From a virus (lineage: Duplodnaviria > Caudoviricetes), in IMG/VR virus record IMGVR_UViG_3300042464_000289, positions 1 through 53,960 of that record: a stretch of 53,960 bases of DNA. One strand, given 5' to 3'. Below the pieces are notes generated by a model that worked only from the letters and a program-made list of their open reading frames with translations, was not told the DNA's origin and ran no database searches. The position numbers were made by a program, and so were the translations under genes. Every line of letters begins with the position of its first letter. The stretch's first letter is position 1. This document shows positions 1 to 38,822 of this stretch, in pieces.

Positions 1-155
1 GTGATAGCTGAAGAACATTGTATAGCTAGCCAGTAGATACCAGGTTGTAACGTTATGTTTATAGTGCCTTCCTTCTCACCTGTAGTAGTGGTACTTATGT
101 TACCGCTATTAGCTATAGGTGTGCCGCTAGGGACACCAGGGTTAGCAGGGTTAGA
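1..155. repeat. Terminal direct repeat, left copy (circular overlap)
   Basis: Identical to 53806-53960 except position 127 (C) vs 53932 (T); the fibre reading frame is continuous across the join. Confidence 0.95.
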
Positions 156-5442: not shown

Positions 5443-5885
5443 TTTTCTTCCGCCTTAGGCTGTAGGCCTGCCTTCAAAAGCTTAGAGTCTAACTCTTCTA
5501 AGGCCTTAGTAATGTTACCGTAGACTTCCCTAGCCTTTGCTGGCGTCCAGGTACTTTTCTTACTGCCTTCATCAGGTGCAAAGGCTTTACTAAGGTACTC
5601 ATCTAGAGGCAGGTAGGCCTGGTTAGTAGCTTCCTTCTGCAGCTTCAACAGAGACTCATTGAACTGCGTTTCTGTGGTAGTGTCTGTTAGCTGCTCTAGT
5701 GCTGCCTTATAGGCGCCTGCACTGTATGACACTAGCCTAGGCGTAACATGTGCTGCGGGGTGCGTTAGTCCTGTAGGCCGCGCGTCCTTGTCTCTGGTAG
5801 CGTTAGAGTAGATAGCGCTGCCTACGAACATAGCGCACAGCAGTAGCATTATTTTTCTGTAGTCTACTTCACCCATTAGAAACAT
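5439..5885 (-). CDS. Membrane-anchored/exported hypothetical protein
   Basis: N-terminal IMLLLCAMFVGSAIY hydrophobic segment, helical remainder. Confidence 0.65.
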   Translation of the reverse strand: MFLMGEVDYRKIMLLLCAMFVGSAIYSNATRDKDARPTGLTHPAAHVTPRLVSYSAGAYKAALEQLTDTTTETQFNESLLKLQKEATNQAYLPLDEYLSKAFAPDEGSKKSTWTPAKAREVYGNITKALEELDSKLLKAGLQPKAEEK

Positions 5886-6495
5886 CCTCTGACCACTGCG
5901 CCGCCATAGCTGTGGCTATACCGGCATACGTTAAGGACCTTAGCTTGCCTCTATTAGGTCCAGGGGACATGTTATGAACTTTACTTTCCCTGCCGTCTAC
6001 TATGTTGGTAGGCAGTAGGTTAGGCAGGCCCTTAAGCCATAGACAGGTAGCCTTAGTTTCACCGTGTCCGAATTGCCAGGGCTGTATAATCTGGCTAGGC
6101 TTTCTAAGCCTGCTAGATATAATGCTGATAGGGTTCTCAATTGCAAGGTGTGCAACAGGCAGGCCTAGCATATACTCTACTAGCTTAAGCGCTGCTTCCT
6201 GTTCTGCTTCGTACTTATGGAAGTGAAGGGCGCCGCTAACTGCTAGCCTAGTACAGGGAGGGTGTGCTATTACTAGGTCGTACTTAAGCCTACCTTCGTA
6301 GATGCCCTTAAGTACGTCCCATATGTCACCCTGTATATGCAAGCCTGGTGATTCTGTTGGCAGTAAGTCACAAGACCAGGCCTCGTGTCCTCTAGCTGTG
6401 AAGGCATCCCTAACACGTCCGGAGTATTCACAAGCTACTATAACCTTAAGCTTGCCTTTAGGCCCTAGATACGGAAGTCTTACTACGTTAGCCAT
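5869..6495 (-). CDS. Short phage-type DNA cytosine methyltransferase-like protein
   Basis: VIVACEYSG, WSCDLLP, HPPCT (catalytic PC), AIENP and RSLTYAGIATAMAAQW motifs. Confidence 0.8.
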   Translation of the reverse strand: MANVVRLPYLGPKGKLKVIVACEYSGRVRDAFTARGHEAWSCDLLPTESPGLHIQGDIWDVLKGIYEGRLKYDLVIAHPPCTRLAVSGALHFHKYEAEQEAALKLVEYMLGLPVAHLAIENPISIISSRLRKPSQIIQPWQFGHGETKATCLWLKGLPNLLPTNIVDGRESKVHNMSPGPNRGKLRSLTYAGIATAMAAQWSEDVSNG

Positions 6496-7205: not shown

Positions 7206-7565
7206 TTATTTTTGTGTCTCTATAGTTGATATAGAGTCTGGTCTGCCTTCTTCATCCCTAGCGTCTCTTTCGGCTAGCTCATCCCTTATATCCTGTTCGC
7301 GCTCTGCTACTGCTGCGCGTACGCTTAGTGCTGTTACTGTGTCCTTAACTTCAGAGAATTCTTTGTGCATGTCCTCTATCCTAGCGAACAGCTTAAGCCT
7401 GTCTTCCTCGCACTCCTTTAGCTTAGTACGTATGAAGTTAAAGACAGTAGCGCAGGCTGTAGTCAGAATACCTCCTGCCCATAATATAAAAGTCTGGACA
7501 GGGTCATTAGTGGTTGTAGCTGTTTGGGCTATGGTTAGTATAACCCCTAATGAAGAATAAATCAT
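7206..7565 (-). CDS. TM plus coiled-coil protein (holin-like or lysis-associated?)
   Basis: Hydrophobic N-half (FILWAGGILTTACATVF), then charged coiled coil; overlaps the portal stop. Confidence 0.55.
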   Translation of the reverse strand: MIYSSLGVILTIAQTATTTNDPVQTFILWAGGILTTACATVFNFIRTKLKECEEDRLKLFARIEDMHKEFSEVKDTVTALSVRAAVAEREQDIRDELAERDARDEEGRPDSISTIETQK

Positions 7566-8956
7566 ACCCCTACTGTGCCTCCTGTTGCTGGATCTATTGT
7601 GCCTTCTGTTGTTCCGCCGTTTGCATCTAAGCCGCGCTTCAGTACGTCTAATGGTGAACCGTCCTGGCCTGCTAGAGCAGGGTCCCTAGATGGTATGCCT
7701 GTTATGTCCCTAATAGCCGCCATGTCTACAGAATCGAAGTCTAGTAGTGCAAGGTCTGCGTTTCCTAGTATCTGCTTATATAGGTCCCTTAGGAATAGCT
7801 TTTCGTCTGCCCCTACAGGTGAGCTAATAACCTTAACAGACTTAGCAGCTTCAGGCCCGAAGTTCATGTAGAGGCCTGCGTAGACAGGGCCTTTGTTTAA
7901 GGTAGCTAGTACATAGTCTACCCTATCTGCAGCTACAGTAAGCGCTACGTCTGCGTGCGCTTCTGCTTCTGCCTTTGTTCCATGTTTACCTTCCAGGATA
8001 GCTCGTTCTGGTAACCCTAAGCCTCTCACCTTAAGGGTGTCTAAGTACTGTGCCCTAGCTAGGAAGGAGGCAGCGCCCCCTGCACCTGTTTCCTTAAACT
8101 CTATTTCCCAGTCGTTAGCTGTAATAATCTTGTTATAGGGTTGTCCGCCTGTGGCAGGGCCTAGCGCTGAACTTATGGCAGCAGGTATGCAAAGGCCTCC
8201 ATTAGACTTAATGGAGGCTAAGAGGCTCTTAGCTATAAACAGATTATCTGTCATAGCTCCAGCGTACATTGTCTGCCCTACAGGGTATCTAACTACCCAT
8301 GTACCGCCAGCGCTTTTTTCGTCGTACTTATCAGCGTTAGACATTGTCTTATCGTATCGCTGCATAGTCTGGTCTAAGTCTTCTAGGTCCCCTACTCCAT
8401 AGAAGTTAGAGCCTTCCTGGTACTGGTTGAATAGTACCGCCTTAGCCATGCCTGAGATAGTAAGCTCTGTGTCCTTACCTTTAGCGTCTTTGAACTTCTG
8501 TTGAAAGCCTACAAAGTCTGCTGTAGTAGGGTCTATCAGAATCTTAGTTATGTCTACCAGTAGATTAGTAAAACGATCTACTACCCACTGTCCTGCTTCG
8601 TTAGCTACCCATACAGGCTCTAGCCCGCACCACCCATAATCTATCATAGAAAACAGTGCAGCTTTTAGTATGCTCTGCTTATGCTCTACGAAGCTTTCTA
8701 CTACGTAGTCCTCTGCGCCTTCAGGTGCGCCCTCTGTTGCTTCTACTGTCCAGTCTGCTGCAAGTGCTGGAGCTATACATAGAAGGCGCGCTAACTTAAC
8801 TACAGGGTCCCTTCTTACCTCTCGTGCGCGTGCATACGTAACAGCGCGCGAGTAATCAATGGTAGAGGTCTTATCGTCAAACGTTAGACCCTGTACCATT
8901 TGAAGCGTAGCGAAAGCGCTATCGTCTATCTTTACTGCTTCTACTTCGGTCGGCAT
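7562..8956 (-). CDS. Portal protein (Mu gp29/DUF935-like)
   Basis: 464 aa directly after TerL; DYGWCGLEPVW, NFYGVG, G-T-K-A-E-A-E-A-H pattern. Confidence 0.8.
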   Translation of the reverse strand: MPTEVEAVKIDDSAFATLQMVQGLTFDDKTSTIDYSRAVTYARAREVRRDPVVKLARLLCIAPALAADWTVEATEGAPEGAEDYVVESFVEHKQSILKAALFSMIDYGWCGLEPVWVANEAGQWVVDRFTNLLVDITKILIDPTTADFVGFQQKFKDAKGKDTELTISGMAKAVLFNQYQEGSNFYGVGDLEDLDQTMQRYDKTMSNADKYDEKSAGGTWVVRYPVGQTMYAGAMTDNLFIAKSLLASIKSNGGLCIPAAISSALGPATGGQPYNKIITANDWEIEFKETGAGGAASFLARAQYLDTLKVRGLGLPERAILEGKHGTKAEAEAHADVALTVAADRVDYVLATLNKGPVYAGLYMNFGPEAAKSVKVISSPVGADEKLFLRDLYKQILGNADLALLDFDSVDMAAIRDITGIPSRDPALAGQDGSPLDVLKRGLDANGGTTEGTIDPATGGTVGV

Positions 8957-8959
8957 TTG

Positions 8960-10252
8960 TTACCCTACAAGCTCAAAGCTAAGGCCTGAGTATATGACTG
9001 CTTCTGTCTTAGCTATAACGTCTATAGGTCTAAGGTAGCAGATAAGATAGCCTAGCGCATCGCTACTGTGTCCTATGGTCTTGTCCCTGTGGTCTACGTC
9101 ACTGGTAGAAGGCTTAAAGGCCTGCTGCTTCAAGTCTGTTATAAGTCCTAGACATGTAGGATGTATAAAGACATGGCGCTTACCGTCTCCAGAACGTAGC
9201 GCTGCGTTTGTAACCGCGAACCTAGTAGCTAAGCTAGGGTTACTGTCCGGATATATAATACTCTTATCACCGAATCTAAGGTCATTATTTATGATTAGAT
9301 AGTCAGTGTAATCAGATGAAGTACTGCGCTGCCTAGAGGCTGCGTCTCCCGTGAAGGTCCACCCTGCTCTATGGTTAGAGTAACGGCTATACAGATAATC
9401 TAATGTTCTCTGTGTAGTAGTGTTGCGTATCTTAATTTCGTCAAACACTACTATGTTGCCATTAACGTAGTGAGCTAGAACCCAGGACATAGGATCTACG
9501 TTAAAGTCTGAACCTACATAGATAGGCCTGTTTCGGTCATACTGTGCAGCGCTGGTTACGTTAGCTATTTCAGAGAACTCTACATACACACCACCCATAG
9601 CACTTAACCAGGTAGCGTTAAACTGCTCTTGAAAGTCTGCATCTGATAGCTGTGATTTAACCTCATTTAGTTTGTCTAGTCCTAGGATATCTGAACTAGG
9701 CCAGGAGGCGCAGTATCTATCTGATTCCTTAGCGTGGAACCACTGCCTGTACTCTGTAGCACTACTTCCGAAGCGCTTAGGTACGCCTATACGCCAACAG
9801 AATCTACAGTGGTGCATGAGGGCAGGCACTAAGGACCTAGACCATACGCCCTCCTTATAGTCGCACGCTTCATCTACTACCCCGCCTGACCACTGCACGC
9901 CTTCTATACGTTCTGACTTATCTCCGCCTAGAACGTATAGCGTAGAACCAAACTTAGTGGTAATGGTCATATCTGAAACAGATACATCTTTAACCCACTG
10001 TTTAGGTATTAGGTTTAGTAAGTCGCCCCACGCTACGCGCTTAGCCTGCGCCACTGTAGGAAGCAGGTAGAAGTAGATAGGATTAGCAAGGCCAGGCGTA
10101 GACTCTGCAAGGCCTCTAACTAATCGCATCTTAGCTAACATACTTTTGCCTGAACCACGCCCGCACGCTAGGCCTACAAACTTCTCAGGCGCGAAGAATG
10201 CTCTACGTTGTTTCGGGTGTGGTTGTCTAGGCTTAAGGTCTGTTATGGACAT
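8960..10252 (-). CDS. terL: Terminase large subunit
   Basis: PHPKQ, Walker A GRGSGKS, Walker B VVDEA, nuclease GSDFNVDP and HSSDALGY. Confidence 0.95.
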   Translation of the reverse strand: MSITDLKPRQPHPKQRRAFFAPEKFVGLACGRGSGKSMLAKMRLVRGLAESTPGLANPIYFYLLPTVAQAKRVAWGDLLNLIPKQWVKDVSVSDMTITTKFGSTLYVLGGDKSERIEGVQWSGGVVDEACDYKEGVWSRSLVPALMHHCRFCWRIGVPKRFGSSATEYRQWFHAKESDRYCASWPSSDILGLDKLNEVKSQLSDADFQEQFNATWLSAMGGVYVEFSEIANVTSAAQYDRNRPIYVGSDFNVDPMSWVLAHYVNGNIVVFDEIKIRNTTTQRTLDYLYSRYSNHRAGWTFTGDAASRQRSTSSDYTDYLIINNDLRFGDKSIIYPDSNPSLATRFAVTNAALRSGDGKRHVFIHPTCLGLITDLKQQAFKPSTSDVDHRDKTIGHSSDALGYLICYLRPIDVIAKTEAVIYSGLSFELVG

Positions 10253-11220: not shown

Positions 11221-12114
11221 CTAGCTTATTCGAACTACTTTGCTAGGTCCTGTATACTCTGTTCTAGGAAAGTTAGTCCAAAGATGTTCTAACTTCGTTG
11301 CCTTAGTACTAGAGCTAGAGCTATGTAGCGGTACAGACATAATGTGCGCCTTCCACCCGTTACGCCTAGCGTAGTACTCATACATACTAGAGGCATAACC
11401 AGACAGGTAGAAACTGCCTTCTATAGTCTGCAGTCTAGTTAGCAGTGCTTCGTGTTGCTCTGCTGTCATTTCGTGCGCGTAGCTATCCCTATCTGACCTT
11501 GTCTCATGCAGGTAGGGAGGGTCTAGGTAGAATACTGTAGTAGGGCTATCGTACTTCCTAATAACCTCTAGCGCGTCGCTATTGAGGATAGTAACCCTGC
11601 GTAGTCTTTGTGCAACAGGTCCTAAGCCTTCTATAGCGCTTAGGTATGCGCTAACGCTTTCACCCATACCACCACGAAGCCTAGTACTCTGTGTAGCGAA
11701 GTCCTTCATAAGGGCCTGGCGTGATTGTCGCACAGCTACAAATAGACTAGCTGCTACCTCTACCTGTTGCCCTAGGTCTAGTGGTACGTCTGCTGCTGCC
11801 ATTAGGTCTATTAAGTCTAAGGCCTGCTCTAGTGAGTCCTCTGCGAATGGTGTAAGAGTTAGCCTCTGCTGTAGTGCTGGTAGCTGTTCTCTCAGTACGC
11901 GCCAGAACGTTACTAGGCTCTTAGACTTGTCCGATACTACTTCTGCTATACCGTCGTAGTGTTGATTATGCAGCAGTACAGAACCGCCTCCAAAGTAAGG
12001 CTCTACATAGCAGGCATTACTAGGTAACTGTATAAGGCTTAGAATCCACTTCGCTAGTTTGCCGTTATGGGCGCCCTTGCCTCCATGCCACTTAAGTGGT
12101 AGGTGTAGTGACAT
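11221..12114 (-). CDS. DNA adenine methyltransferase (D12/Dam-like class)
   Basis: PLKWHGGK, YVEPYFGGGSV (motif I), FYLDPPY (motif IV), LSGY, EHLWTNF. Confidence 0.92.
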   Translation of the reverse strand: MSLHLPLKWHGGKGAHNGKLAKWILSLIQLPSNACYVEPYFGGGSVLLHNQHYDGIAEVVSDKSKSLVTFWRVLREQLPALQQRLTLTPFAEDSLEQALDLIDLMAAADVPLDLGQQVEVAASLFVAVRQSRQALMKDFATQSTRLRGGMGESVSAYLSAIEGLGPVAQRLRRVTILNSDALEVIRKYDSPTTVFYLDPPYLHETRSDRDSYAHEMTAEQHEALLTRLQTIEGSFYLSGYASSMYEYYARRNGWKAHIMSVPLHSSSSSTKATKLEHLWTNFPRTEYTGPSKVVRIS

Positions 12115-12117
12115 GGT

Positions 12118-12471
12118 CTAGGCTTCCTTAAGTACAGTTAGTTTGCCGTCTACTAGCTCTACTGAAATACCATTCCAGTTAAGTAGCGGGCGAAGTGTAG
12201 GCCTAGCTGCTGTACCTGTCATAGTCCAGGTTTTTCCTGCGCTGTTCCTGTGCCCATTAACTGCAAAGTCTACCTCTATGGTATTGCCCTGGAATGGTAG
12301 GCGTAGCACTACATGTGTTACGTATGTAGGCCATACAGGCTTAACCTGGTAGACGTACCTAACAGCCCCTAGGCCTATAGCCTTAGATTGTGCTTCGTCT
12401 TCACATGGTGTGACTGTTAAGGTTCTCTGCTCTGCCTGTGGCTTAGGCTTATTAGTTTTGCGTCTGCTCAT
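12118..12471 (-). CDS. Hypothetical protein (DUF6527-like)
   Basis: WTMTGTAARPTLRPLL resembles the WxxxGxxxxPTxxPS motif. Confidence 0.55.
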   Translation of the reverse strand: MSRRKTNKPKPQAEQRTLTVTPCEDEAQSKAIGLGAVRYVYQVKPVWPTYVTHVVLRLPFQGNTIEVDFAVNGHRNSAGKTWTMTGTAARPTLRPLLNWNGISVELVDGKLTVLKEA

Positions 12472-12510
12472 GTGCTTACCTGTGTTAATGTGTTAGATAT
12501 GTTAGCGCAT

Positions 12511-13250
12511 ACAAAAGCCCCTGCCTAAGTCACCGAATGTAGTACGTACTCTATGAGGCTTTAACGCTTGGCCTGGCTAACAAACAGACCTGGTCTTCAC
12601 CTGTAGTTGTACGACTTGTTCTATTAGGCAGGGGCTTAGATTAAGGAGGCACTAAGACTTAGGCATCGTTACCCTTAGTCTAAGCCTTAGTGCTGTCCTA
12701 GTATCGGCTAGGAAGGTCGTCTCAGGTCCCTCCCTAGCTTAGGCCTAAGGCTTTTACACTCTTAGGCTATGTGTCTGAGGTATCACCTAACTACTGGTAC
12801 TATATGGCATTCTGCTAGCTGCCCTGCAAATAGCCTACCGTCTTAGACTAACTGCTTCAGGCAGAAGATATGTGCTTCTAATAACTTCGCTAGACTCTAC
12901 CTCTCAGGGTAGCACAGCATACTAGGACTAAACGATTCAAAGCTAGAAACTATACTATTGCTAAGTATAGCTACGCCTCTACTAGGCTTAGGTCTTCTGC
13001 TAACTGCTAGCCGTCTGGTTCCGCCTGCCACATTGGTTAACAGCAACAGTACCTAAGGAGCTAACGCTAGGTCTTGTATATGCTCGACAATGTAGCAGGC
13101 TATTTCAAGGGCTAGCCTAGTGGCTCACCTAGACTACCCTTAGGCCATATAGGCCTGTCTCTGTGTACGTAGGGCTAGGTATTGCCTCCTAGCCCTTTGT
13201 GCCTATAGGATTCTTTCCTTTAGGTCTTAAACCCTCCCAGGTTCTCTCTT
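12511..13250 (-). ncRNA. Candidate large structured non-coding RNA / 5' leader
   Basis: 811 nt gap with no ORF of 60 aa or more; many local hairpins plus nested long-range stems (13095-13105 with 12828-12838; 12993-13000 with 12861-12868; 12624-12637 with 12515-12528). Confidence 0.65.
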
Positions 13251-13251
13251 A

Positions 13252-13285
13252 TGTACCTGCCTTCAGTCCGTTACGCTGAAAATTA
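13252..13285 (-). promoter_or_regulatory. CAGGTACA-type putative phage-specific promoter
   Basis: GCAGGTACA preceded by an AT-rich tract; same core as intergenic sites at 26679, 29568 and 38774. Confidence 0.45.
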
Positions 13286-14014
13286 TTTCTGCCGTCTAAG
13301 GTCCTTAGATTTCTTCTTAGCTAAGGCCCTTCGTCCTGCCCTGTTAAGCTTAGAAGGGTCTACGGAAGGGCGTTCCTTATACATGGTCTTAGCATAGTCT
13401 AGAGCGTCTATAGCGTTTAGCTCTGCTAAGGTCTTCCCTAGTCTTCGCGCTGGTTGTATGTGTACAGCCTTAAACCCTCTAGACTCTAGTGCCTCTGCAT
13501 CTACTGCAACGTCTGGAAGACCTATAACTAGCTGCCCTGATGCAAGGTAGAGACAGGCGGACATAATCTCTAACATGTCCTGCTTAGACATTACGTGCAT
13601 ACGCAGGGAGGTAGGCAGCGCACAGCAGATAGCAGTGTTGCTATGTAGTAGTCCATTCTTAGCTAGGTCCTTACGGGTTAGCCTAGTCTCTATCCCGTTA
13701 GGGTCTTTGACTACTACGCATACAGAATCTAAGGCCCTGTTCTGTATGTCTATAACCTCCTTAGGTATCAATAGTGTACTGTCCCCAGGGCATGGGTTGA
13801 GCAGTACATGTAGGGCGGTAGTAGTGATAGCGTTAAGACCAGTTACTGCCCTAGGCTCTGTATCTGTTTCCTCTACTAGGAAGGCCTCTACACTGTCTTC
13901 AAAACAGCGCGGCCCTAGGCTACCTAATGACTCTACTACAGTAGGGCCTGGCCTCTCTTCACCAGTGCAGTAGCCGTATAGCCTCCCGTCTGGTAGCTTC
14001 ATTAAATCCCTCAT
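13283..14014 (-). CDS. Hypothetical protein, basic C-terminus
   Basis: 243 aa coupled to upstream gene; LNRAGRRALAKKK tail. Confidence 0.65.
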   Translation of the reverse strand: MRDLMKLPDGRLYGYCTGEERPGPTVVESLGSLGPRCFEDSVEAFLVEETDTEPRAVTGLNAITTTALHVLLNPCPGDSTLLIPKEVIDIQNRALDSVCVVVKDPNGIETRLTRKDLAKNGLLHSNTAICCALPTSLRMHVMSKQDMLEIMSACLYLASGQLVIGLPDVAVDAEALESRGFKAVHIQPARRLGKTLAELNAIDALDYAKTMYKERPSVDPSKLNRAGRRALAKKKSKDLRRQK

Positions 14015-15321
14015 AACTTCTTTCCGCCTTCCTGTTGTCTAGCCTTCTTACTGTGGTCTTCTCTGCTGTGGTTGTAGGTCATCTTAGCAGCTACTGCCTG
14101 AGGTAGTCTAAGCTTAAGACCGTAGGCCATGTCCGCTATCCTTATTAGGGCGTCTGCTAGCTCTACCTCTAAGGACATGAACTCAGGGCAGTGCTCATCT
14201 GGCTTATCTTTCCTGTACCCTTCGTAGGCCTCAGACACTTCCGTATGTATCAGCGCTATCTGGTCTCCTACTGCCTTACTACCCTTAGGGCGTTCCCCTG
14301 CAGGGTAATTACAGCCTAGGTATTCTCCTGTCTTAAGGTCTGACCACCATCCGCGCCCATGTGACCAGAGGCCTACGTTTAGGACTAGCTTAGACACTGC
14401 CTCTACATATGTAGACTCTGCTTCAGGGCTACGCTCTAGCTCTGTAGTGTCGTCGTCTTCCTCCTGCCCCTGGAATGTAGAACCTAGTATCTTAGACAGT
14501 GCTACATGGTCTACGTCTCCTGTAACTGCCTGCGTAGCTAGGGTGTTAACGTCGATAGGCTTAAGGTTCATGTCTAGAAGGTAAGGGTCTAAGTGTACCT
14601 TATGAGACACTAGAAGCGCTCTAGCCTGTTCTTCAGTACCTAGCCTTAGTACTGTGTCTAGTTCATCCTCTGTGGTTAGCCCTGCTGCCTCCCTATCAAA
14701 CAACAGAGGCGTAGGCGTAGGTAGTGATAGCTTAAGGTCTCTTACTGTTGCAATCTCTGCGCCTACTAGGTCTAGTCTGTCCAGTACTTTCTGAAGGCCT
14801 TCTGCGTTAGACTCTAGAGCCTCAGGCTTAGGCGTTACCTCTGAACGGTCTACGTCTGCTGTACTCTGCTTAGCTGCGTCTACGTGCCCTACGTACATGT
14901 AGCTACGCCCCTGCTTCTGTAGCGTTGTCTTGAGCAGGTCCCCTGTGTTAGTGGGCGTTATCAGTGCGAAGGTGTTATCGTAGGCGCCTTTACCTATAAG
15001 GCTCTTATGGTGCAGGCTAGCGCCGTACTCTACCTTACCACGTACGTTAGCCGCGCCGATGTTTACGGCCCTTACTATGACGAAGTACAGAGCGCGTGTT
15101 AGTACGTCTGCTCTAGACTCTGCAGCAGGCTCTGTAGCGCTGTAGGCCTCAGACTGCTTAATAGCGTTAAGCAGGTTAGCGAATGTTAGGAGGTCTGCTA
15201 TCTGCTGCAGGAACAGCCTAATAGAATAGTCCAGGTCCCTTACCTGGTCATTATAGACAGCGCGCTGCGCTAGGTCCTTTGTAGCCTGTGGTACGTTGTT
15301 AGCTTCTGTGTCTGCGTTCAT
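14011..15321 (-). CDS. Protein with C-terminal MazG-like NTP pyrophosphohydrolase domain
   Basis: IALIHTEVSEAYEGYRK...LEVELADALIRIADM...KMTYNHSR; ~300 aa N-terminus unrecognised. Confidence 0.8.
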   Translation of the reverse strand: MNADTEANNVPQATKDLAQRAVYNDQVRDLDYSIRLFLQQIADLLTFANLLNAIKQSEAYSATEPAAESRADVLTRALYFVIVRAVNIGAANVRGKVEYGASLHHKSLIGKGAYDNTFALITPTNTGDLLKTTLQKQGRSYMYVGHVDAAKQSTADVDRSEVTPKPEALESNAEGLQKVLDRLDLVGAEIATVRDLKLSLPTPTPLLFDREAAGLTTEDELDTVLRLGTEEQARALLVSHKVHLDPYLLDMNLKPIDVNTLATQAVTGDVDHVALSKILGSTFQGQEEDDDTTELERSPEAESTYVEAVSKLVLNVGLWSHGRGWWSDLKTGEYLGCNYPAGERPKGSKAVGDQIALIHTEVSEAYEGYRKDKPDEHCPEFMSLEVELADALIRIADMAYGLKLRLPQAVAAKMTYNHSREDHSKKARQQEGGKKL

Positions 15322-15419: not shown

Positions 15420-16049
15420 CTATGTTTCCTCGTTCAACAGTCTACGCATAGCAGAGAGGGCGCCTCTGTGAATGTTAGAGACACTGTGCCTAGACAGGTT
15501 CATAGATATCGCTATAGAGTCTAGGCTATGCCCTCTGCTGTGATTCCATAGAATGTAGCTCTGGTCTGGTGTAAGCTTAGGCAGGTTATCCTTTATAAGC
15601 TGCAGGCGCTGTTCTGCTAAGGTTACGTCTTCTGCCTCTAGTGCAACGTCTACAGGCGTTACCTTGTCTACAGGCTCTACTACGCTTCCTGAGTAGTCTT
15701 CTGTAGCCTGGCCTACGCTTACGCCTCCCTGCTTATGGGAAGCAGTACGTGCCTTAAAGTAAGTTCTGCCCACAATGTAGTAGAACTCTATAACACAGAA
15801 GTCTTCAAAGGTCTTACCCTTAGTAGCGTCAAACTTCTGGACATAGTGTGCATACCTAAGGCAGAAGTGTGTGTTAACCAGTTCATCTCTAGTAGCTGTT
15901 CTGTCTGAGTCTCTCACCATCATAGGGCAGTTAACGAAGGTAACACTAGCTATCTTAGCTGCTACCTTGCATAGTCTAGTATAGAGCTTTTCTGTAAGTC
16001 CTTCTGCAAGTGTGGCAGGTACAGTGTTAGCGTCTAGTATAGCGTTCAA
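15420..16049 (-). CDS. Phage-encoded sigma70-family sigma factor
   Basis: Region 2-like KFDATKGKTFEDF; region 4 HTH LTPDQSYIL...SLDSIAISMNLSRHSVSNIHRGALSAMR; TTG start. Confidence 0.75.
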   Translation of the reverse strand: MNAILDANTVPATLAEGLTEKLYTRLCKVAAKIASVTFVNCPMMVRDSDRTATRDELVNTHFCLRYAHYVQKFDATKGKTFEDFCVIEFYYIVGRTYFKARTASHKQGGVSVGQATEDYSGSVVEPVDKVTPVDVALEAEDVTLAEQRLQLIKDNLPKLTPDQSYILWNHSRGHSLDSIAISMNLSRHSVSNIHRGALSAMRRLLNEET

Positions 16050-18609: not shown

Positions 18610-18638
18610 AGGAGGGCCTAGCCTGTCTAGGCCCTCCT
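18610..18638. terminator. Perfect 12 bp hairpin without U-tract
   Basis: aggagggcctag-cctgt-ctaggccctcct just after the RadC stop. Confidence 0.55.
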
Positions 18639-19255: not shown

Positions 19256-19330
19256 CTGTGTCCTTAGGAACGTTTCAGGTGAGCAAGTGAACCACTGCAG
19301 GAAGTATATCGTCTGTCTGCCCTGTGTCAA
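19256..19330 (-). promoter_or_regulatory. Early sigma70-like promoter plus conserved leader
   Basis: TTGACA-N16-TATACT (19330-19303), then CCTGAAACGTTCCTAAGGACACAG before ATG. Confidence 0.8.
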
Positions 19331-19369
19331 TTACTCTGTTCTGCTATTTTTCAAGTTTGGCGAGAAATA

Positions 19370-19397
19370 GCCAGGCCCTGATTCTGCAGGGCCTGGC
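19370..19397 (-). terminator. Hairpin terminator candidate
   Basis: gccaggccctg-attctg-cagggcctggc; followed by TATTTCT on the minus strand. Confidence 0.6.
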
Positions 19398-19406
19398 CTG
19401 AGGCCT

Positions 19407-19793
19407 CTAGACTGCAGGGCCTCTTACTACTCCTACGCTGTCTACCTGATTCCAGTCTAGGCCTAGCTTCTTTAGTGCGTCGTTCTGTGCGTTGGTGAAT
19501 CCCTGCCCTTCATCCCGAAAGCTTACTACCTGAATTTTCTTTCCTGCTCTAACCGTTACGGTTAGTACTGGTGTAGTATGTACGCAAGTGTAGCCAGCGC
19601 CGATAACTCCATGCCGCACCTTTAACCCGCCTACCTGCTCTACAGCCTGTTTAACGTTAGCATAGAACTGCTTAACCCCGAATTTGTCCTTAAGCTTCAT
19701 GTCAGACGTTGCATAGATGATGCCTGAAGGTTCCTGCTCTACTGTTACTGCCTGTCCGTTTACTGCTACCGTTACTGTCTGTCCGTTAAACAT
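19407..19793 (-). CDS. Early hypothetical protein
   Basis: 128 aa with its own promoter/leader and downstream hairpin. Confidence 0.75.
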   Translation of the reverse strand: MFNGQTVTVAVNGQAVTVEQEPSGIIYATSDMKLKDKFGVKQFYANVKQAVEQVGGLKVRHGVIGAGYTCVHTTPVLTVTVRAGKKIQVVSFRDEGQGFTNAQNDALKKLGLDWNQVDSVGVVRGPAV

Positions 19794-19794
19794 G

Positions 19795-19866
19795 TCTCTG
19801 TGTCCTTTAGAACGTTTCAGAATTGAACCACTGCCAGGAGTGTATCGACACCCTGGCCACTGTCAA
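19795..19866 (-). promoter_or_regulatory. Early promoter plus 41 bp repeated leader
   Basis: TTGACA-N16-TACACT; 19795-19835 identical to 20046-20086. Confidence 0.85.
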
Positions 19867-19870
19867 CAGT

Positions 19871-20044
19871 TTATCTGACTATTTTTATAGTCCAGGTAGA
19901 AATTGTGTTTTTCTCTGTTTCTGTTAGCTGCCTGCGTACCTTGATGATAGCCACATTAGAGGTAGTAGCTTCAATTCTGAAGGTACGGCTAGCCGTCATG
20001 TCTGCAGAAGTCCAAACTATGTCCCATGTCTTCATGTCTAACAT
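19871..20044 (-). CDS. 57 aa early protein (not in ORF track)
   Basis: MLDMKTWDIVWTSADMTASRTFRIEATTSNVAIIKVRRQLTETEKNTISTWTIKIVR behind the conserved leader. Confidence 0.75.
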   Translation of the reverse strand: MLDMKTWDIVWTSADMTASRTFRIEATTSNVAIIKVRRQLTETEKNTISTWTIKIVR

Positions 20045-20045
20045 T

Positions 20046-20117
20046 TCTCTGTGTCCTTTAGAACGTTTCAGAATTGAACCACTGCCGAAAGTGTACCCTA
20101 GCTTTCGGCAGTGTCAA
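20046..20117 (-). promoter_or_regulatory. Early promoter plus 41 bp repeated leader, -10 box inside a 12 bp inverted repeat
   Basis: TTGACA-N16-TACACT; cactgccgaaag (20080-20091) / ctttcggcagtg (20102-20113). Confidence 0.85.
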
Positions 20118-20127
20118 GCGCAGGCCT

Positions 20128-20307
20128 CTACCTTTTTGGTACGGATTTCGAAAGAATTGCAGAGACCTGGTCTAGGCGTACTGTTCTGTTCTCCATGTAG
20201 AGGCCTTTAGCCTGCTCCATGTTCTCTGCCAATATGAAGCGCCCTGTCTTCATTGCCTGACCTATTACGTAAACGTAATAGGTCTTAGCGTTGTTAATGT
20301 CTGCCAT
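20128..20307 (-). CDS. 59 aa early protein (not in ORF track)
   Basis: MADINNAKTYYVYVIGQAMKTGRFILAENMEQAKGLYMENRTVRLDQVSAILSKSVPKR behind an AAACGTTTAAGGACACAG leader. Confidence 0.75.
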   Translation of the reverse strand: MADINNAKTYYVYVIGQAMKTGRFILAENMEQAKGLYMENRTVRLDQVSAILSKSVPKR

Positions 20308-20340
20308 GTGCCTCTGTGTCCTTAAACGTTTCTAGGTTAT

Positions 20341-20940
20341 TTAGGGGGTCCGTTTCAGACTATAGCTGCGCACAGTAGGTGCGTCTATAGGGTGGCCTTC
20401 TTTTTTCCTGATTATCCAGGAATTAACTACCAAGTCAGGCAGGATGTTATCGTCTTCCGTAGTCTCTACCTCCATTAGGCTTAGGCCTGTGTGACGACAG
20501 AACGCAGCTACAGCTAGCTGTACCTCTAAGCAGTTTGAGTAGTCATGCCCTGCCAGTATTCCACCATACTCTATCTTATGCCACCATAGCACACACTGCG
20601 TGAAGGTGTCGCAAAAATCGTGAGCGCTGTCCACATACACAAAAGATAGGCTACGGTCTGCGAATTCATCTACAATGAACTCCGCGCGTCCTACGATAAC
20701 CTTAGAGCGTTCACCATGTCTAGACAGTAGGCGCCTGCAGTGCGCTAAGTCTGTGTCTGCCTTATCCTGCGTTGCATACCCTGGAAGGCTAGCGTTCCAG
20801 GGGTCTATAGAGTACAGGGTACTAAGCTTAGAATGTTCTAGCAGGTAATCTGAGTAGGCGCCAGACCCTACGCCTACCTCTACACCCTGCCGCGCTCCTA
20901 TGCTATCTAGTAGCGCGGGTATCTCGTTTCTGCTTCTCAT
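20341..20940 (-). CDS. Class I SAM-dependent methyltransferase (Methyltransf_24-like)
   Basis: GVEVGVGSG, YSIDPW, FVYVDSAH, GGILAGHDY. Confidence 0.88.
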   Translation of the reverse strand: MRSRNEIPALLDSIGARQGVEVGVGSGAYSDYLLEHSKLSTLYSIDPWNASLPGYATQDKADTDLAHCRRLLSRHGERSKVIVGRAEFIVDEFADRSLSFVYVDSAHDFCDTFTQCVLWWHKIEYGGILAGHDYSNCLEVQLAVAAFCRHTGLSLMEVETTEDDNILPDLVVNSWIIRKKEGHPIDAPTVRSYSLKRTP

Positions 20941-21158
20941 CGTGCGTTTAGTCCATTCTTTGTTATGTAGTTTTCACAAGACTTAATAGCCTTAGCCTCT
21001 GTTGCAAAGGTCCTGCCTTTGTACCCATGTATAACGTTGTTGCTGCCGTCTTTATCTACTCTAACCACTAGAGCGTACCAGTCCCCGCCTTCACCGTTTT
21101 GACGTACTGCAGGAGCGTAGTAGGAAGTCTTACCAGGTAGGATTGTTGCGTCTAACAT
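20937..21158 (-). CDS. Small early hypothetical protein
   Basis: 73 aa downstream of promoter 21204-21231. Confidence 0.7.
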   Translation of the reverse strand: MLDATILPGKTSYYAPAVRQNGEGGDWYALVVRVDKDGSNNVIHGYKGRTFATEAKAIKSCENYITKNGLNAR

Positions 21159-21203
21159 TGTCAGGCCTTCTGTGTTAGTTGGTGTCTGTTACTTGTTCGG
21201 CTA

Positions 21204-21231
21204 AGTATAGCAGGCCTCTAGACTATGTCCA
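21204..21231 (-). promoter_or_regulatory. Sigma70-like promoter
   Basis: TGGACA-N16-TATACT. Confidence 0.6.
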
Positions 21232-21405
21232 CCACTTCCCGTCAGATTCACACCAGTTTGCAGGAACTTTTACCGGGTTAGCCTCCAGCTTAGCGCGTCG
21301 GATTGCGTACAGTTCCTCTGAGGCGTTCTTCCATTCTACAGAATTGAAGTCTGCAGAGTTAAGGATAGCTGCTAAGGCTGTTTCTCTTTTAGAAGGCTTA
21401 GACAT
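21223..21405 (-). CDS. Small early hypothetical protein
   Basis: 60 aa downstream of promoter 21459-21486. Confidence 0.7.
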   Translation of the reverse strand: MSKPSKRETALAAILNSADFNSVEWKNASEELYAIRRAKLEANPVKVPANWCESDGKWWT

Positions 21406-21458
21406 GGTTAGGCTCTTTCTTAGTGCTGTGTGCTGGTTAACGTTTCAACTCTGCAGGT

Positions 21459-21486
21459 ACTATAACAGCTATCGGCCATAGGTCAA
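21459..21486 (-). promoter_or_regulatory. Sigma70-like promoter
   Basis: TTGACC-N16-TATAGT followed by the TGAAACGTT leader core. Confidence 0.7.
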
Positions 21487-21611
21487 ACGCTGTCCTACTG
21501 TTTTCTACCCTTTTTGGAAAGATTTTCGAACTACCCTAGAGGACCTGCCCTGACCGATAACCGGATGTACACCGATTTTCGAATTTGTTCCGGGACTGAA
21601 AGCGCCAGACA

Positions 21612-21643
21612 CTCAGGAAGGCCTCAGGAAGGCCTCAGGAGGC
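21612..21643 (+). repeat. Short tandem repeat
   Basis: ctcaggaaggc twice, then ctcaggaggc. Confidence 0.75.
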
Positions 21644-21692
21644 GAAGTTACAGACAGGCGGACATTGACACAGAAAACGGAAAACTCTGCTT

Positions 21693-21760
21693 CCTGCGCA
21701 ATTTGGAACAATATCAAATGTTCACTACTGGACAGCTACTTATTTGGCACAGGATATGCT
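21693..21760 (+). promoter_or_regulatory. Composite element ending in a sigma54-like -24/-12 motif, copy A
   Basis: CCTGCGCAATT-N11-CAAATGTTCACTA-N15-TTTGGCA-N6-ATGC. Confidence 0.65.
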
Positions 21761-21772
21761 CAAAAATAATTT

Positions 21773-21805
21773 AAGCCAGGCGTAGACTACTGTCTACCCT
21801 GGCTT
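21773..21805. terminator. Hairpin terminator candidate after the nuclease gene
   Basis: aagccagg-c-gtagac-tact-gtctac-cctggctt; minus strand continues AAATTATTTTT. Confidence 0.6.
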
Positions 21806-21824
21806 GTATACATTTGTACACCTG

Positions 21825-24684: not shown

Positions 24685-24719
24685 GTTGTAGCCTTATAGG
24701 GTGGTCTGTGTGTGCGTAG

Positions 24720-24793
24720 TAGGCCCTCAGGGACTTGAACCCTGAACCAACAGATTATGAGTCTGCTGCTCTAACCAATTGAGCTAAGAGCCT
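24720..24793 (-). tRNA. tRNA with CAT anticodon, probably tRNA-Ile2 (lysidine-modified, reads AUA)
   Basis: AGGCTCT TAGCTCAATTGGTTAGAGC A GCAGA CTCATAA TCTGT TGGTT CAGGG TTCAAGT CCCTG AGGGCCT A; full cloverleaf, Ile-like acceptor (A1, C4-G69), no encoded CCA. Confidence 0.92.
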
Positions 24794-25876: not shown

Positions 25877-25962
25877 CTTAAAACATTCCAGATAGAGGAT
25901 ACAGAAGGGCCTAGAAGTCTAGGCCCTTAGGCTATATGTAACAGGCTCTAAGGCCTGGTTGA

Positions 25963-26589: not shown

Positions 26590-26668
26590 AGTAGAACCCT
26601 TTGTGCAAAGTGCGACGAATTGAAGTGAAACCGTTTAGGACTTGTTTGCGTTTCGCGTTGTTAGTCCC

Positions 26669-26725
26669 TCTGTTACTGTGTACCTGGTTCAAATTGTTGG
26701 ACCAGGCATTTTCTAGATTATTTTT
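26669..26725 (-). promoter_or_regulatory. CCAGGTACA-type putative phage promoter
   Basis: GTCCAAC-N8-CCAGGTACA; 19 bp identical to 38764-38782. Confidence 0.6.
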
Positions 26726-27588: not shown

Positions 27589-27613
27589 AGGCTAGCCTAG
27601 CGTAGGCTAGCCT
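27589..27613 (-). terminator. Hairpin terminator candidate
   Basis: aggctagccta-gcg-taggctagcct; TCTTT follows on the minus strand. Confidence 0.55.
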
Positions 27614-29522: not shown

Positions 29523-29567
29523 TGCGGTTAGCCTTTGTAAGTGTGTGCTGTAGTGCCTCTGTCTAGA

Positions 29568-29612
29568 TGTACCTGGCAGCTAGTGTTGAACGGGAAAGAA
29601 TTTTCAAGATTT
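29568..29612 (-). promoter_or_regulatory. CCAGGTACA-type putative phage promoter
   Basis: GTTCAAC-N8-CCAGGTACA with upstream AT-rich tract. Confidence 0.6.
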
Positions 29613-34699: not shown

Positions 34700-34776
34700 A
34701 GAAAGCCTTAACGCCTGCAGGGCGCTCCTGCAGGCGTTTATTGAGAAGGTAAGGCTATGCAGGCTACATGCTCTGC

Positions 34777-38727: not shown

Positions 38728-38763
38728 TTTGAAGGCTCTTTGTGTGCGTTGTTACTGTGTGCG

Positions 38764-38822
38764 TCTGTTACTGTGTACCTGGCTGCGCTTCATGGAATCC
38801 CGAAAATCTCGAAAGATTTTTG
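38764..38822 (-). promoter_or_regulatory. CCAGGTACA-type putative promoter heading the replication block
   Basis: CCAGGTACACAGTAACAGA identical to 26669-26687; AT-rich upstream tract. Confidence 0.6.

What the first reader, a model, noticed from the sequence alone, without database searches (positions are those of the whole stretch)
12472..13282. ~770 nt ornate non-coding RNA candidate at the head of the whole virion operon
Seen: the largest ORF-free gap in a tightly packed genome. It starts right after a CAGGTACA motif and is almost fully paired: hairpins such as AGGGCUAGG/CCUAGCCCU (13171-13196), GCACUAAGGCUUAGAC/GCCUAAGUCUUAGUGC and GCUAGGGAGG/CCUUCCUAGC, and nested long-range stems AAAUAGCCUGC/GUAGGCUAUUU (enclosing ~255 nt) and GCAGAAGA/UCUUCUGC. 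Several mismatches resolve as G-U pairs on the minus strand, supporting RNA-level structure on that strand. Known: phages carry large ncRNAs of unknown function (GOLLD, ROOL) and cis-acting antiterminator RNAs (HK022 put). I cannot match it to any. Inference: a new large ncRNA, or a leader controlling the ~27 kb late transcript.
Basis: partly seen in the sequence, partly recalled or inferred. Interest (0 to 1): 0.88.

Follow-up and report, generated by a model that had tools for sequence, protein, structure and literature searches.

The report
Structured non-coding leader before phage packaging genes
An 811-base gene-free stretch in a lake-water phage folds into many RNA hairpins that a second natural strain preserves, and it probably gates transcription into the packaging and virion genes, though its function is untested.

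Summary
The core observation holds. Window 12472-13282 is ORF-free on the coding (minus) strand and folds much better than shuffles (z -5.66). It also folds better than this genome's own palindrome-rich background: 1 of 121 background windows is as low after GC correction.

Three named local hairpins are real. The two named long-range stems are not in the best fold, and natural variation breaks one of them. No Rfam family matches, including GOLLD and ROOL.

The strongest new evidence comes from a roughly 5% divergent strain in another lake metagenome. Of its 12 substitutions at predicted paired positions, 11 keep the pair, 7 sit at G.U pairs and one pair is compensatory (P about 0.0002). The neighbouring gene shows no such effect. 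The nearest relative, L050 (TerL 69%), has a 688-nt gap at the same junction. It is equally structured but shares no sequence with the window's gap.

In the window and in L050 the gap ends in a long stem plus U-run 22-43 nt before the next gene; a third relative, L051, has a similar stem plus U-run about 185 nt before its TerS-like gene.

Best reading: a fast-evolving structured leader or attenuator at the early-to-late boundary (confidence about 0.4). A free-standing large RNA, a DNA-level element and tolerated hairpin clutter all remain possible. The candidate is novel, but it is supported by only two or three genomes and has no expression data.

The parts
12472..13282 (-). ORF-free, strongly folding non-coding region (811 nt) between the early/nucleotide-metabolism genes and the packaging genes
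   Evidence: ORF list. Stops in all frames. MFE z -5.66. 1 of 121 genome windows as low after GC correction. Strain variation keeps pairs.
13252..13259 (-). CAGGTACA core, preceded by the A/T-rich inverted element GAAATAATTTTC (13278-13289) that overlaps the upstream stop codon. Possible promoter; weak evidence.
   Evidence: 15 copies in the window against 3.0 expected. 5 of 11 minus-strand copies lie in the 10.3% of DNA that is not ORF (P 0.003). The extended 24-nt motif shared by sites 26687, 29576 and 38782 is NOT present here.
13171..13196 (-). 9-bp perfect hairpin AGGGCUAGG/CCUAGCCCU, of the same type as hairpins found after other genes in this genome
   Evidence: pair probability 0.99.
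13023..13100 (-). 13-bp helix closing a 78-nt domain
   Evidence: pair probability 0.99. Strain changes 13029 (G.U to A-U) and 13034 (A-U to G.U) keep the pairs.
12948..12972 (-). 9-bp hairpin carrying a compensatory double change between strains
   Evidence: 12953 T>C together with 12967 A>G turns A-U into G-C. 12949 changes U.G to C-G.
12777..12903 (-). 127-nt branched domain: a 13-bp closing helix, inner helices 12879-12885/12796-12802 and 12859-12867/12815-12824, and hairpin 12826-12855
   Evidence: Strain changes 12790, 12894, 12881 and 12829 (U.G to C-G) and 12854 (C-G to U.G) all keep pairs. 12863 is the single broken pair and sits next to indels.
12707..12738 (-). 10-bp hairpin GCUAGGGAGG/CCUUCCUAGC
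   Evidence: pair probability 1.00. No strain differences across 12680-12770.
12644..12699 (-). 19-bp hairpin whose loop is inverted (reverse complement) in the second strain
   Evidence: 12657 changes U.G to C-G and 12679 changes A.C to G-C. The variant loop 12663-12679 matches the reverse complement at 15 of 17 positions, against 9 of 19 in the forward direction.
12508..12637 (-). Terminator-like element: a 14-bp perfect GC-rich stem (12624-12637/12515-12528) closing a folded 95-nt insert, followed by UUUUGUAU
   Evidence: (I4). It has the same AAG...CUU|UUG shape as the hairpin after the capsid gene (48779-48811). There are 0 strain differences in 12499-12656. The simple terminator scanner did not flag it because its loop limit is 8 nt.
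12473..12482 (-). Shine-Dalgarno region (CAGGUAAGCA) of the 117-aa gene, predicted to pair with 12905-12914
   Evidence: 8 bp, span 442 nt, pair probability 0.92. Prediction only; no variation data because X5 does not cover it.
12118..12471 (-). First gene after the gap: a 117-aa orphan
   Evidence: No match in PHROGs, Pfam or NCBIfam. The Atlas gave no usable hit.
13283..14014 (-). Last gene before the gap: a 243-aa orphan
   Evidence: No family found. The second strain has a 96-nt (net) in-frame deletion at 13394-13493.
15420..16049 (-). 209-aa protein with a weak ECF-type sigma-factor likeness; a possible phage sigma for middle/late promoters
   Evidence: TIGR02937 E 2.4e-6, residues 16-203 on model positions 4-163 of 165, below the curated cut-off. 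The L050 homolog matches likewise.

Best explanation
The gap is transcribed with the genes (minus strand) and folds into a chain of hairpins and small branched domains. Together they form a long cis-acting leader and insulator at the boundary between the early/nucleotide-metabolism genes and the packaging and virion genes.

It ends in an intrinsic-terminator-like stem plus U-run (12637-12508) only 37-43 nt before the first downstream start codon. Any polymerase that expresses the packaging genes must therefore read through this element. The leader would gate entry into the late genes by termination against read-through or antitermination. It may also mask the first ribosome-binding site.

Shown: there is no coding capacity; the fold is unusually stable; pairing is preserved between two natural strains on the minus strand; the nearest relative has an analogue at the same position; and the 3' end has a terminator-like shape.

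Inferred: transcription itself, the 5' end, terminator activity, and any antitermination factor.
For: 1. Non-coding. There are 15-29 stops in each of the six frames. The second strain carries 8 indel events of 1-2 nt inside 12664-12957, one of them within the only small ORF.

2. Fold. z is -5.66 against shuffles. 1 of 121 of the genome's own windows is as low after GC correction.

3. Strain test. 23 substitutions were used; the loop-inversion cluster 12664-12679 was dropped. On the minus-strand fold, 1 pair is broken, 11 are kept (including one compensatory pair) and 11 changes are at unpaired positions.
- 5000 random placements with the same base and substitution type give a mean of 10.6 broken (P 0.0002).
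- 7 changes fall at G.U pairs against 1.7 expected (P 0.0002).
- The plus-strand fold gives 3 broken and 5 kept, with no G.U excess.
- One-sided transitions are of G.U type on the minus strand 9 times and of A.C type once.
- Control: in the neighbouring 243-aa gene, 4 are broken and 1 kept of 9, matching the null (P 0.55).

4. Analogue at the same position. L050 (TerL 69%) has a 688-nt ORF-free gap directly after its MazG-like gene and before its packaging block. It has z -6.02, and 0 of 55 windows of its own locus are as low.

5. The window, L050 and L051 each carry a long stem with a large interior followed by a U-run upstream of the packaging genes. The stem after the capsid gene of this phage has the same tail shape.

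6. No sigma-70-like promoter lies between the stem and the start codon.
Against: - No expression data: no RNA run was listed.
- The 5' end is unknown. The CAGGTACA core is common in coding sequence too, and the extended promoter-like motif is absent here.
- The terminator-like stem has a 95-nt interior, so the scanner did not call it. On its own it gives z -2.59, with 3 of 200 shuffles as good.
- No Q-like, RinA-like or other antiterminator or activator was recognised nearby.
- There is no sequence conservation with L050.
- Most relatives with TerL identity of 40-50% have no long structured gap. Of 8 gaps tested, only L126 was clearly structured.
- The strain test rests on one variant strain assembled at depth of about 5.7, and on a structure predicted from the window itself.
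- The loop inversion and the mismatch-repairing changes in hairpin 12644-12699 could come from DNA template switching within a palindrome rather than from RNA selection.
- L050's gap contains a 65-nt copy of its own TerL gene, which looks like a recombination scar.
Confidence: 0.4

Rival explanations
1. A free-standing large structured RNA of about 0.75 kb, released at the terminator-like stem and acting in trans (for example as a scaffold, a decoy or a counter-defence RNA), as has been suspected for GOLLD and ROOL.
For: - Its size and number of helices are in the range given for GOLLD, where many members exceed 800 nt (passages).
- It has a terminator-like 3' end.
- Pairing is preserved between strains.
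- An analogue of similar size exists in L050, there about 850 nt upstream of a tRNA gene.
Against: - No Rfam match, even at E up to 10, in the window or in L050.
- No shared sequence or obvious shared architecture between the window and L050, whereas GOLLD has a universally conserved 3' region.
- Variation supports only helices spanning 127 nt or less.
- The centre of the gap (12872-13071) is not locally structured (z +0.33) and is the most variable part.
- In the window the only tRNA found (24719-24793) lies about 11.4 kb from the gap.
Confidence: 0.2
2. Tolerated non-coding clutter. This would be a recombination-prone junction where terminator-type hairpins and DNA scraps pile up; the hairpins are kept or perfected by DNA-level palindrome dynamics, and the region as a whole has no function.
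For: - The genome is rich in palindromic words (CTAG 2.8 times and AGGCCT 7.1 times the expected count), and its background fold z is already -1.0.
- Hairpins of the same type sit after many genes.
- The loop of hairpin 12644-12699 is inverted between strains.
- L050's gap holds a 98.5% identical 65-nt copy of its own TerL gene.
- The sequence evolves fast and carries indels.
- Most relatives lack such a gap.
Against: - The strand asymmetry of tolerated changes (9 of G.U type against 1 of A.C type on the minus strand) and the near absence of pair-breaking changes (1 against 10.6 expected) are not expected for unconstrained DNA.
- 158 nt (12499-12656) have 0 differences, while the rest of the covered gap has 31 in 626 nt.
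- Both the window and L050 are among the most stable segments of their own genomes.
Confidence: 0.2
3. A DNA-level element such as a cos/pac packaging site, the genome terminus, or a replication origin or single-strand initiation signal, placed next to the terminase genes and using hairpins in single-stranded DNA.
For: - It lies just upstream of the TerS-like and TerL genes, where cos and pac sites often lie (recalled general knowledge).
- G.T wobble pairs would be tolerated in single-stranded minus-strand DNA too, so the strain test does not separate RNA from ssDNA.
- The loop inversion is a DNA event.
Against: - There are no repeated short binding motifs or iterons. Only two tiny tandem repeats were found, one at the gap's edge next to the 117-aa start codon (12481-12505) and one in the flank, and the direct repeats are weak.
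- There is no AT-rich unwinding stretch: GC is 0.467 against about 0.48 genome-wide.
- The sigma-70-like early promoters cluster elsewhere (19.3-21.8 kb), which suggests the genome 'start' is there.
- Read ends could not be examined, because only contigs were available.
Confidence: 0.12

Closest known systems
Lambda-type late leader (late promoter, short '6S' leader RNA, terminator tR', read through by Q); recalled knowledge, no call
   Same: A non-coding leader that ends in a terminator placed ahead of the late genes, so that late expression needs read-through. Here the terminator-like stem ends 37-43 nt before the first downstream gene.
   Different: About four times longer and far more structured. 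No Q-like gene was recognised. The promoter is not identified. It directly precedes the packaging genes rather than lysis genes. Termination has not been shown.
GOLLD and ROOL large ornate RNAs of phages and prophages
   Same: Phage-borne, hundreds of nucleotides long, many helices, unknown function, and a lake origin as for GOLLD (passages; for the lake origin of this window).
   Different: The Rfam models do not match, even at E up to 10. There is no conserved sequence core between the window and L050. In the window the gap is not near a tRNA island.
RinA-type late-operon control region upstream of terS in staphylococcal phages (PMC3152322; search listing and start of abstract only)
   Same: A control region placed immediately upstream of the small-terminase gene that governs the whole late operon.
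   Different: That region is a promoter bound by an activator protein, not a long structured RNA. No RinA-like protein was found here.
HK022 put RNA (a cis-acting antiterminator RNA); recalled knowledge
   Same: An RNA structure within the transcript itself could make the polymerase resistant to termination.
   Different: put consists of two stem-loops of about 70 nt. Nothing here was matched to it, and no test was possible.
phi29 packaging RNA (pRNA); recalled knowledge
   Same: A phage RNA whose fold is kept while its sequence diverges almost completely among relatives, and which is linked to packaging.
   Different: pRNA is about 170 nt and has a defined fold. There is no evidence that this RNA is part of a packaging motor.

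Membership tests
GOLLD RNA (Rfam family) | Match to the family covariance model, including its universally conserved 3' region | tested here: not met
   cmscan at gathering threshold over the whole window found only tRNA. At E up to 10 over 12300-13450 it found only two chance miRNA rows. The L050 gap gave the same result.
GOLLD / ROOL | Frequent location next to tRNA genes or tRNA islands | tested here: not met
   The only tRNA in the window is at 24719-24793, about 11.4 kb away. In L050 a tRNA lies about 850 nt downstream of the gap.
ROOL RNA (Rfam family) | Match to the family covariance model | tested here: not met
   no row for this family.
Structured RNA in general | Fold more stable than composition predicts | tested here: met
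   z -5.66 against dinucleotide shuffles. 1 of 121 of the genome's own windows is as low after GC correction. Local 200-nt windows are uneven.
Structured RNA in general | Base pairs preserved by one-sided (G.U) and two-sided changes among natural sequences | tested here: met
   With one variant strain: 1 broken, 11 kept, one compensatory pair, P 0.0002. The coding control matches the null. Only two sequences were available, so no R-scape-type test was possible.
Intrinsic (Rho-independent) terminator | GC-rich stem directly followed by a U-run | tested here: inconclusive
   A 14-bp perfect stem 12624-12637/12515-12528 is followed by UUUUGUAU. However, the interior is 95 nt, outside the scanner's definition, and the element alone gives z -2.59.
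Lambda-type late leader with antitermination | Late promoter at the 5' end of the leader | tested here: inconclusive
   The CAGGTACA core with an A/T-rich element is present, but the extended 24-nt motif is absent. No sigma-70-like site lies on the minus strand within the gap.
Lambda-type late leader with antitermination | Antiterminator protein (Q-like) encoded upstream | tested here: not met
   No such family was found among the neighbours in PHROGs, Pfam or NCBIfam. There is only a weak ECF-sigma-like protein at 15420-16049.
cos/pac or origin region | Repeated protein-binding motifs, an AT-rich stretch, or read termini | tested here: inconclusive
   No iterons and no AT-rich stretch. Termini are not testable because only contigs were laid.

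The most novel reading that the evidence does not exclude
The window's gap, the L050 gap and perhaps the L126 gap are members of an unrecognised class of very large (0.6-0.8 kb) phage RNAs. The class would be defined by position (the switch from early to packaging genes) and by fold rather than by sequence. These RNAs would be released as discrete molecules at the terminal stem and would act beyond simple attenuation, for example as a scaffold for packaging or assembly, or as a decoy against host defence.
Probability: 0.2. Interest if true: 0.8.

Novelty: new variant of a known kind. Interest (0 to 1): 0.55.

Why it matters
If the reading is right, this uncultured freshwater siphophage lineage controls entry into its whole packaging and virion programme through an unusually long RNA structure that evolves fast in sequence while keeping its pairs. 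That would add a new form to the small set of known late-gene gates, which are activator-bound promoters, Q-type antitermination and put RNAs. It would also give a concrete target of about 0.8 kb, with helices already supported by natural variation, for structure probing and transcript mapping. The work also shows that low-coverage strain variants in public metagenomes can test RNA structure when no alignable homologues exist.

Tried and rejected
- **Known RNA families.** Rfam found nothing in the gap or in the L050 gap.
- **Coding or recoded gene.** Rejected. All six frames carry stops of all kinds. tblastx of the gap against 145 loci found nothing.
- **DNA homologues.** There was no match in the phage records. 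blastn and nhmmer against the fetched loci gave only chance rows. Searching with the flanking orphan proteins found no relatives in viral contigs. An exact 25-mer from the invariant part found nothing in viral contigs.
- **Closer relatives.** TerL searches found no relative closer than 48% (window) or 51% (L050) in viral contigs. In metagenome contigs the closest are L050 at 69%, L057 at 62% (a 1.5-kb fragment) and L051 at 61%. In species genomes there is one 1.8-kb contig binned as Saccharibacteria, which is too short to name a host.
- **Alignment of the window gap to the L050 gap.** Local score 23 against a null of 21.3 +/- 2.2.
- **Sigma-70 promoter and simple terminator scan.** Nothing on the minus strand inside the gap.
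- **Extended promoter-like motif.** Not present at the gap. One search was the same search with a mistyped pattern (one letter too many); it found nothing and was corrected.
- **Tandem repeats.** Only two tiny ones, one at the gap's edge (12481-12505) and one in the flank.
- **Shared 11-mers with other intergenic regions.** Only the genome's common words.
- **Flanking orphans.** The Atlas gave no usable hit. A PDB sequence search with the sigma-like protein found nothing.
- **Expression.** No RNA holder was listed.
- **Coverage limits.** X5 does not cover 12303-12498, so the Shine-Dalgarno helix could not be tested.
- **Minus-minus-plus fold difference.** -14.8 kcal, not unusual: 9 of 121 windows are as low.
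- **Gaps in more distant relatives.** 7 of 8 tested are not clearly more structured than their controls.
- **Supplements.** Supplementary files of papers were not consulted.
Full report
**What the window is.** The window is a whole IMG/VR virus record of 53,960 nt, classed as linear and estimated 85% complete. Near-identical DNA occurs in lake-water metagenomes. All long ORFs lie on the minus strand.

Reading the minus strand, the gene order is as follows:
- prohead protease and major capsid protein (50.4-48.9 kb);
- tape measure and tail genes (46-39 kb);
- helicase, primase-helicase, DNA polymerase and ligase (38.7-23.8 kb);
- tRNA-Met (24719-24793);
- a stretch of small ORFs with the best sigma-70-like promoters (21.8-19.3 kb);
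- a weakly ECF-sigma-like 209-aa protein (15420-16049);
- a MazG-like fusion protein (14011-15321) and a 243-aa orphan (13283-14014);
- the gap (12472-13282);
- a 117-aa orphan, a D12-class adenine methyltransferase, a 201-aa TerS-like protein, a 119-aa protein, TerL (8960-10252), portal (7562-8956), and so on to a collagen-like fibre that runs off the contig end.

Synteny with L050 shows that the two contig ends join within the virion block.

**Check of the observation.** The gap holds no minus-strand ORF of 50 aa or more, and each of the six frames carries 15-29 stops of mixed kinds. It is the longest such stretch once the 73-aa and 60-aa ORFs inside the 884-nt interval 20941-21824 are counted.
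- The minus strand folds to -294.1 kcal/mol, z -5.66, with 0 of 20 shuffles as good. The plus strand folds to -279.3 kcal/mol, z -3.89.
- This genome is rich in palindromic words (CTAG 2.8 times and AGGCCT 7.1 times the expected count), so I also used the genome itself as the control. For 200-nt windows the background z is already -1.01 +/- 1.41, and the four gap windows score -3.07, -1.51, +0.33 and -3.96.
- For 811-nt windows the gap's GC-corrected residual is -42.6 kcal (z -2.79), and 1 of 121 background windows is as low (125 of 132 planned windows were computed before the time limit).
- Perfect inverted repeats are not enriched (2 against 0.89 expected).
The two long-range stems are not.
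- 62% of bases are paired, which is ordinary.

**Natural variation.** No RNA run was available, but four DNA runs with partial word matches were laid on 11900-13900. Run X5 holds contigs of a strain that differs from the window by 28 substitutions and 9 gap letters in 12499-13076, and by 10 substitutions in 13055-13394. There are no differences in 12499-12656 or in 12680-12770. The flanking genes differ at 7 of 403 and 18 of 408 positions. The 243-aa gene also has an in-frame deletion (98 nt replaced by 2). The indels of 1-2 nt confirm that the gap does not code.

I mapped the substitutions onto the fold predicted for the window.
- I left out the cluster 12664-12679, which is a single event, so 23 substitutions remained.
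- On the minus-strand fold, 1 breaks a pair, 11 keep a pair and 11 are at unpaired positions.
- Of the 11 pair-keeping changes, six are U.G to C-G, one is C-G to U.G, one is G.U to A-U, one is A-U to G.U, and two form the compensatory pair 12953/12967.
- Placing the same substitutions at random on bases of the same kind gives a mean of 10.6 broken (P 0.0002), and 1.7 changes at G.U pairs against 7 observed (P 0.0002).
- On the plus-strand fold the result is 3 broken and 5 kept (P 0.0096), with no G.U excess.
- One-sided transitions within helices are of the G.U type on the minus strand 9 times and of the A.C type once.
- As a control, the 9 listed differences in the adjacent 243-aa gene give 4 broken, 1 kept and 4 unpaired, as the null predicts (P 0.55).

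Six helices or hairpins, each spanning 127 nt or less, receive support in this way. The very long closures (345-442 nt) receive none.

Caveats: there is only one variant strain, assembled at a depth of about 5.7; the structure was derived from the window itself; and G.T wobble is also tolerated in single-stranded DNA.

**A DNA-level event.** In X5 the loop of hairpin 12644-12699 is the reverse complement of the window's loop: 15 of 17 positions match, against 9 of 19 in the forward direction. Both mismatches in that stem become Watson-Crick pairs. This looks like inversion or template switching within a palindrome (the mechanism is recalled, not tested). It shows that the loop sequence of this hairpin is not what matters. 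It also warns that part of the 'pair-keeping' signal could be mutational rather than selective.

**Relatives.** There is no nucleotide match in 50,697 phage records or in any fetched locus. TerL searches found nothing closer than 48% in IMG/VR. In metagenome contigs they found L050 (69%), L057 (62%, a 1.5-kb fragment) and L051 (61%).

L050 is syntenic over 18 genes. It has a 688-nt ORF-free gap (5443-6130) directly after its MazG-like gene and ahead of its packaging block.
- That gap folds with z -6.02, and none of 55 windows of its own locus is as low (z -3.19).
- It shows no sequence similarity to the window's gap and matches no Rfam family.
- It also contains a 65-nt, 98.5% identical copy of part of L050's own TerL gene, which looks like a recombination scar.

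L051 has only a 362-nt gap, which is not especially structured (z -1.59). Among the other loci with TerL identity of 40-50%, a scan of all 145 loci for same-strand ORF-free stretches of 500 nt or more flagged only L126. L017 had a 719-nt gap at a 70-aa ORF threshold. Of 8 shorter gaps tested against controls, only L126 stood out (z -3.80; -4.25 with 100 shuffles). The long structured gap is therefore a feature of the window and its nearest relative, and perhaps of L126, but not of the wider clade.

**Ends of the element.** At the 3' end, a perfect 14-bp GC-rich stem (12624-12637/12515-12528) closes a folded 95-nt insert and is followed by UUUUGUAU. The next start codon is 37-43 nt further on.
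- L050 ends its gap with a 16-bp stem, a 49-nt interior and UUUUCUU, about 22 nt before the next ORF.
- L051 has a 12-bp stem, a 56-nt interior and GUUUUUCUUUUU upstream of its TerS-like gene.
- The hairpin after this phage's capsid gene has the same AAG...CUU|UUG form.
- No promoter-like site fits between the stem and the start codon, so the packaging genes must be expressed by read-through.
- A predicted helix (12905-12914/12473-12482) covers the Shine-Dalgarno region of the 117-aa gene, but it is untested.

At the 5' end, CAGGTACA (13259-13252) follows the upstream stop codon.
- The octamer occurs 15 times against 3.0 expected.
- 5 of 11 minus-strand copies lie in the 10.3% of DNA that is not ORF (P 0.003).
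- Three sites ahead of replication genes share a 24-nt block plus an A/T-rich element and look like phage-specific promoters.
- The copy at the gap shares only the core and an A/T-rich element, so a promoter here is a weak inference.

**What it most likely is.** The data fit a transcribed, minus-strand, cis-acting structured leader and insulator that ends in a terminator-like element and gates entry into the packaging and virion genes (confidence about 0.4). Shown: the non-coding nature, the unusual stability, preserved pairing with minus-strand asymmetry, an analogue at the same position, and the terminator-like 3' end. Inferred: transcription, the 5' end, termination and read-through control.

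Three rivals remain:
- a free-standing large RNA (0.2);
- tolerated hairpin and recombination clutter (0.2);
- a DNA-level cos/pac/origin element (0.12).

**Comparison with known systems.** The region is not a member of GOLLD, ROOL or any other Rfam family. GOLLD and ROOL are described as phage and prophage RNAs that often lie near tRNA islands, with GOLLD having a universally conserved 3' region (passages of bioRxiv 10.1101/2024.12.08.627333). Neither feature is met in the window.

In logic the gap resembles the lambda late leader with its terminator, and the control regions upstream of terS. For the terS control regions I saw only the search listing and the start of the abstract of PMC3152322. 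The lambda, HK022 put and phi29 pRNA comparisons are recalled. The gap is several times longer than those leaders and is RNA-structure-rich, and no partner protein was recognised.

I found no description of such an element in three literature searches. Those searches cover only the held library.

**Verdict.** This is a real, unusually structured non-coding element on the coding strand, with first evidence of selection for pairing. It belongs to no known RNA family and is best read as a new variant of a late-operon leader or attenuator. The evidence base is thin (two to three genomes, one variant strain, no expression data), so I score interest at 0.55.

Noticed in passing
window 26664-26687, 29553-29576, 38759-38782 (minus strand): Three intergenic sites share a 24-nt block (CCAGGTACA...ACAGAsGsAC) preceded by an A/T-rich inverted element. 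Each lies 46-90 nt upstream of a replication-module gene. They are likely phage-specific (middle?) promoters, perhaps read by the sigma-like protein at 15420-16049.
   Followed up: partly
window 15420-16049 (minus) and L050 1931-2596: The 209-aa protein and its L050 homolog weakly match the ECF sigma-70 superfamily over almost the whole model (E 2.4e-6 and 2.7e-4, both below the curated cut-off).
   Followed up: partly
window, whole: Strong word bias: CTAG 2.8 times, CTTAG 4.3 times and AGGCCT 7.1 times the expected count, while GATC (0.12), CCGG (0.15) and TCGA (0.25) are avoided. The phage carries a D12-class adenine methyltransferase at 11221-12114. This bias inflates fold z-scores genome-wide (mean -1.0).
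   Followed up: partly
L050 5908-5972 and 10742-10806: A 65-nt, 98.5% identical direct copy of an internal TerL segment sits inside L050's non-coding gap, 4.8 kb upstream of the gene. It could be a recombination scar, an assembly artefact or a regulatory copy; this is unresolved.
   Followed up: partly
window 13394-13493: Strain X5 replaces 98 nt of the 243-aa orphan gene with 2 nt, a net in-frame deletion of 32 codons.
   Followed up: no
window 19300-21800 (minus strand): A cluster of the best sigma-70-like promoter matches (TTGACA-16-TATACT at 19330-19303, and others at 19866, 20117, 21231 and 21486) lies among small ORFs. This is probably the early region and perhaps the true genome start.
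   Followed up: no
window 48779-48811, 18610-18638, 34710-34738, 27589-27613, 25905-25928, 19370-19397: Perfect 10-15-bp hairpins sit just after genes, most without a clear U-run. They share AGGG(C)CTAG-type arms with the hairpins inside the gap and are likely this phage's terminators or RNA-end protectors.
   Followed up: partly
L017 8839-9557: A more distant relative (TerL 41%) has a 719-nt gap upstream of its packaging genes. It holds three copies of a GTGCAAnnGAkTGCAC-type palindrome (operator-like sites) and a possible small membrane ORF. It is unrelated in sequence to the window's gap.
   Followed up: no
L126 6831-7401: A relative with TerL identity of 42% has a 571-nt same-strand ORF-free, A-rich region 2.5 kb upstream of TerL that folds with z -4.25 (100 shuffles) and includes a hairpin of about 36 bp. 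It is a possible third analogue.
   Followed up: partly
window 3-2819 and contig ends: The contig breaks inside a collagen-like repeat tail-fibre gene. Synteny with L050 shows that the two contig ends join within the virion block, so the record is a permuted, slightly incomplete genome.
   Followed up: partly
L146 (JAGQNT010000068.1, 1798 nt): The only species-genome hit for this TerL type (57% identity) is a 1.8-kb contig binned in a Candidatus Saccharibacteria MAG. It is too short to support a host call.
   Followed up: no
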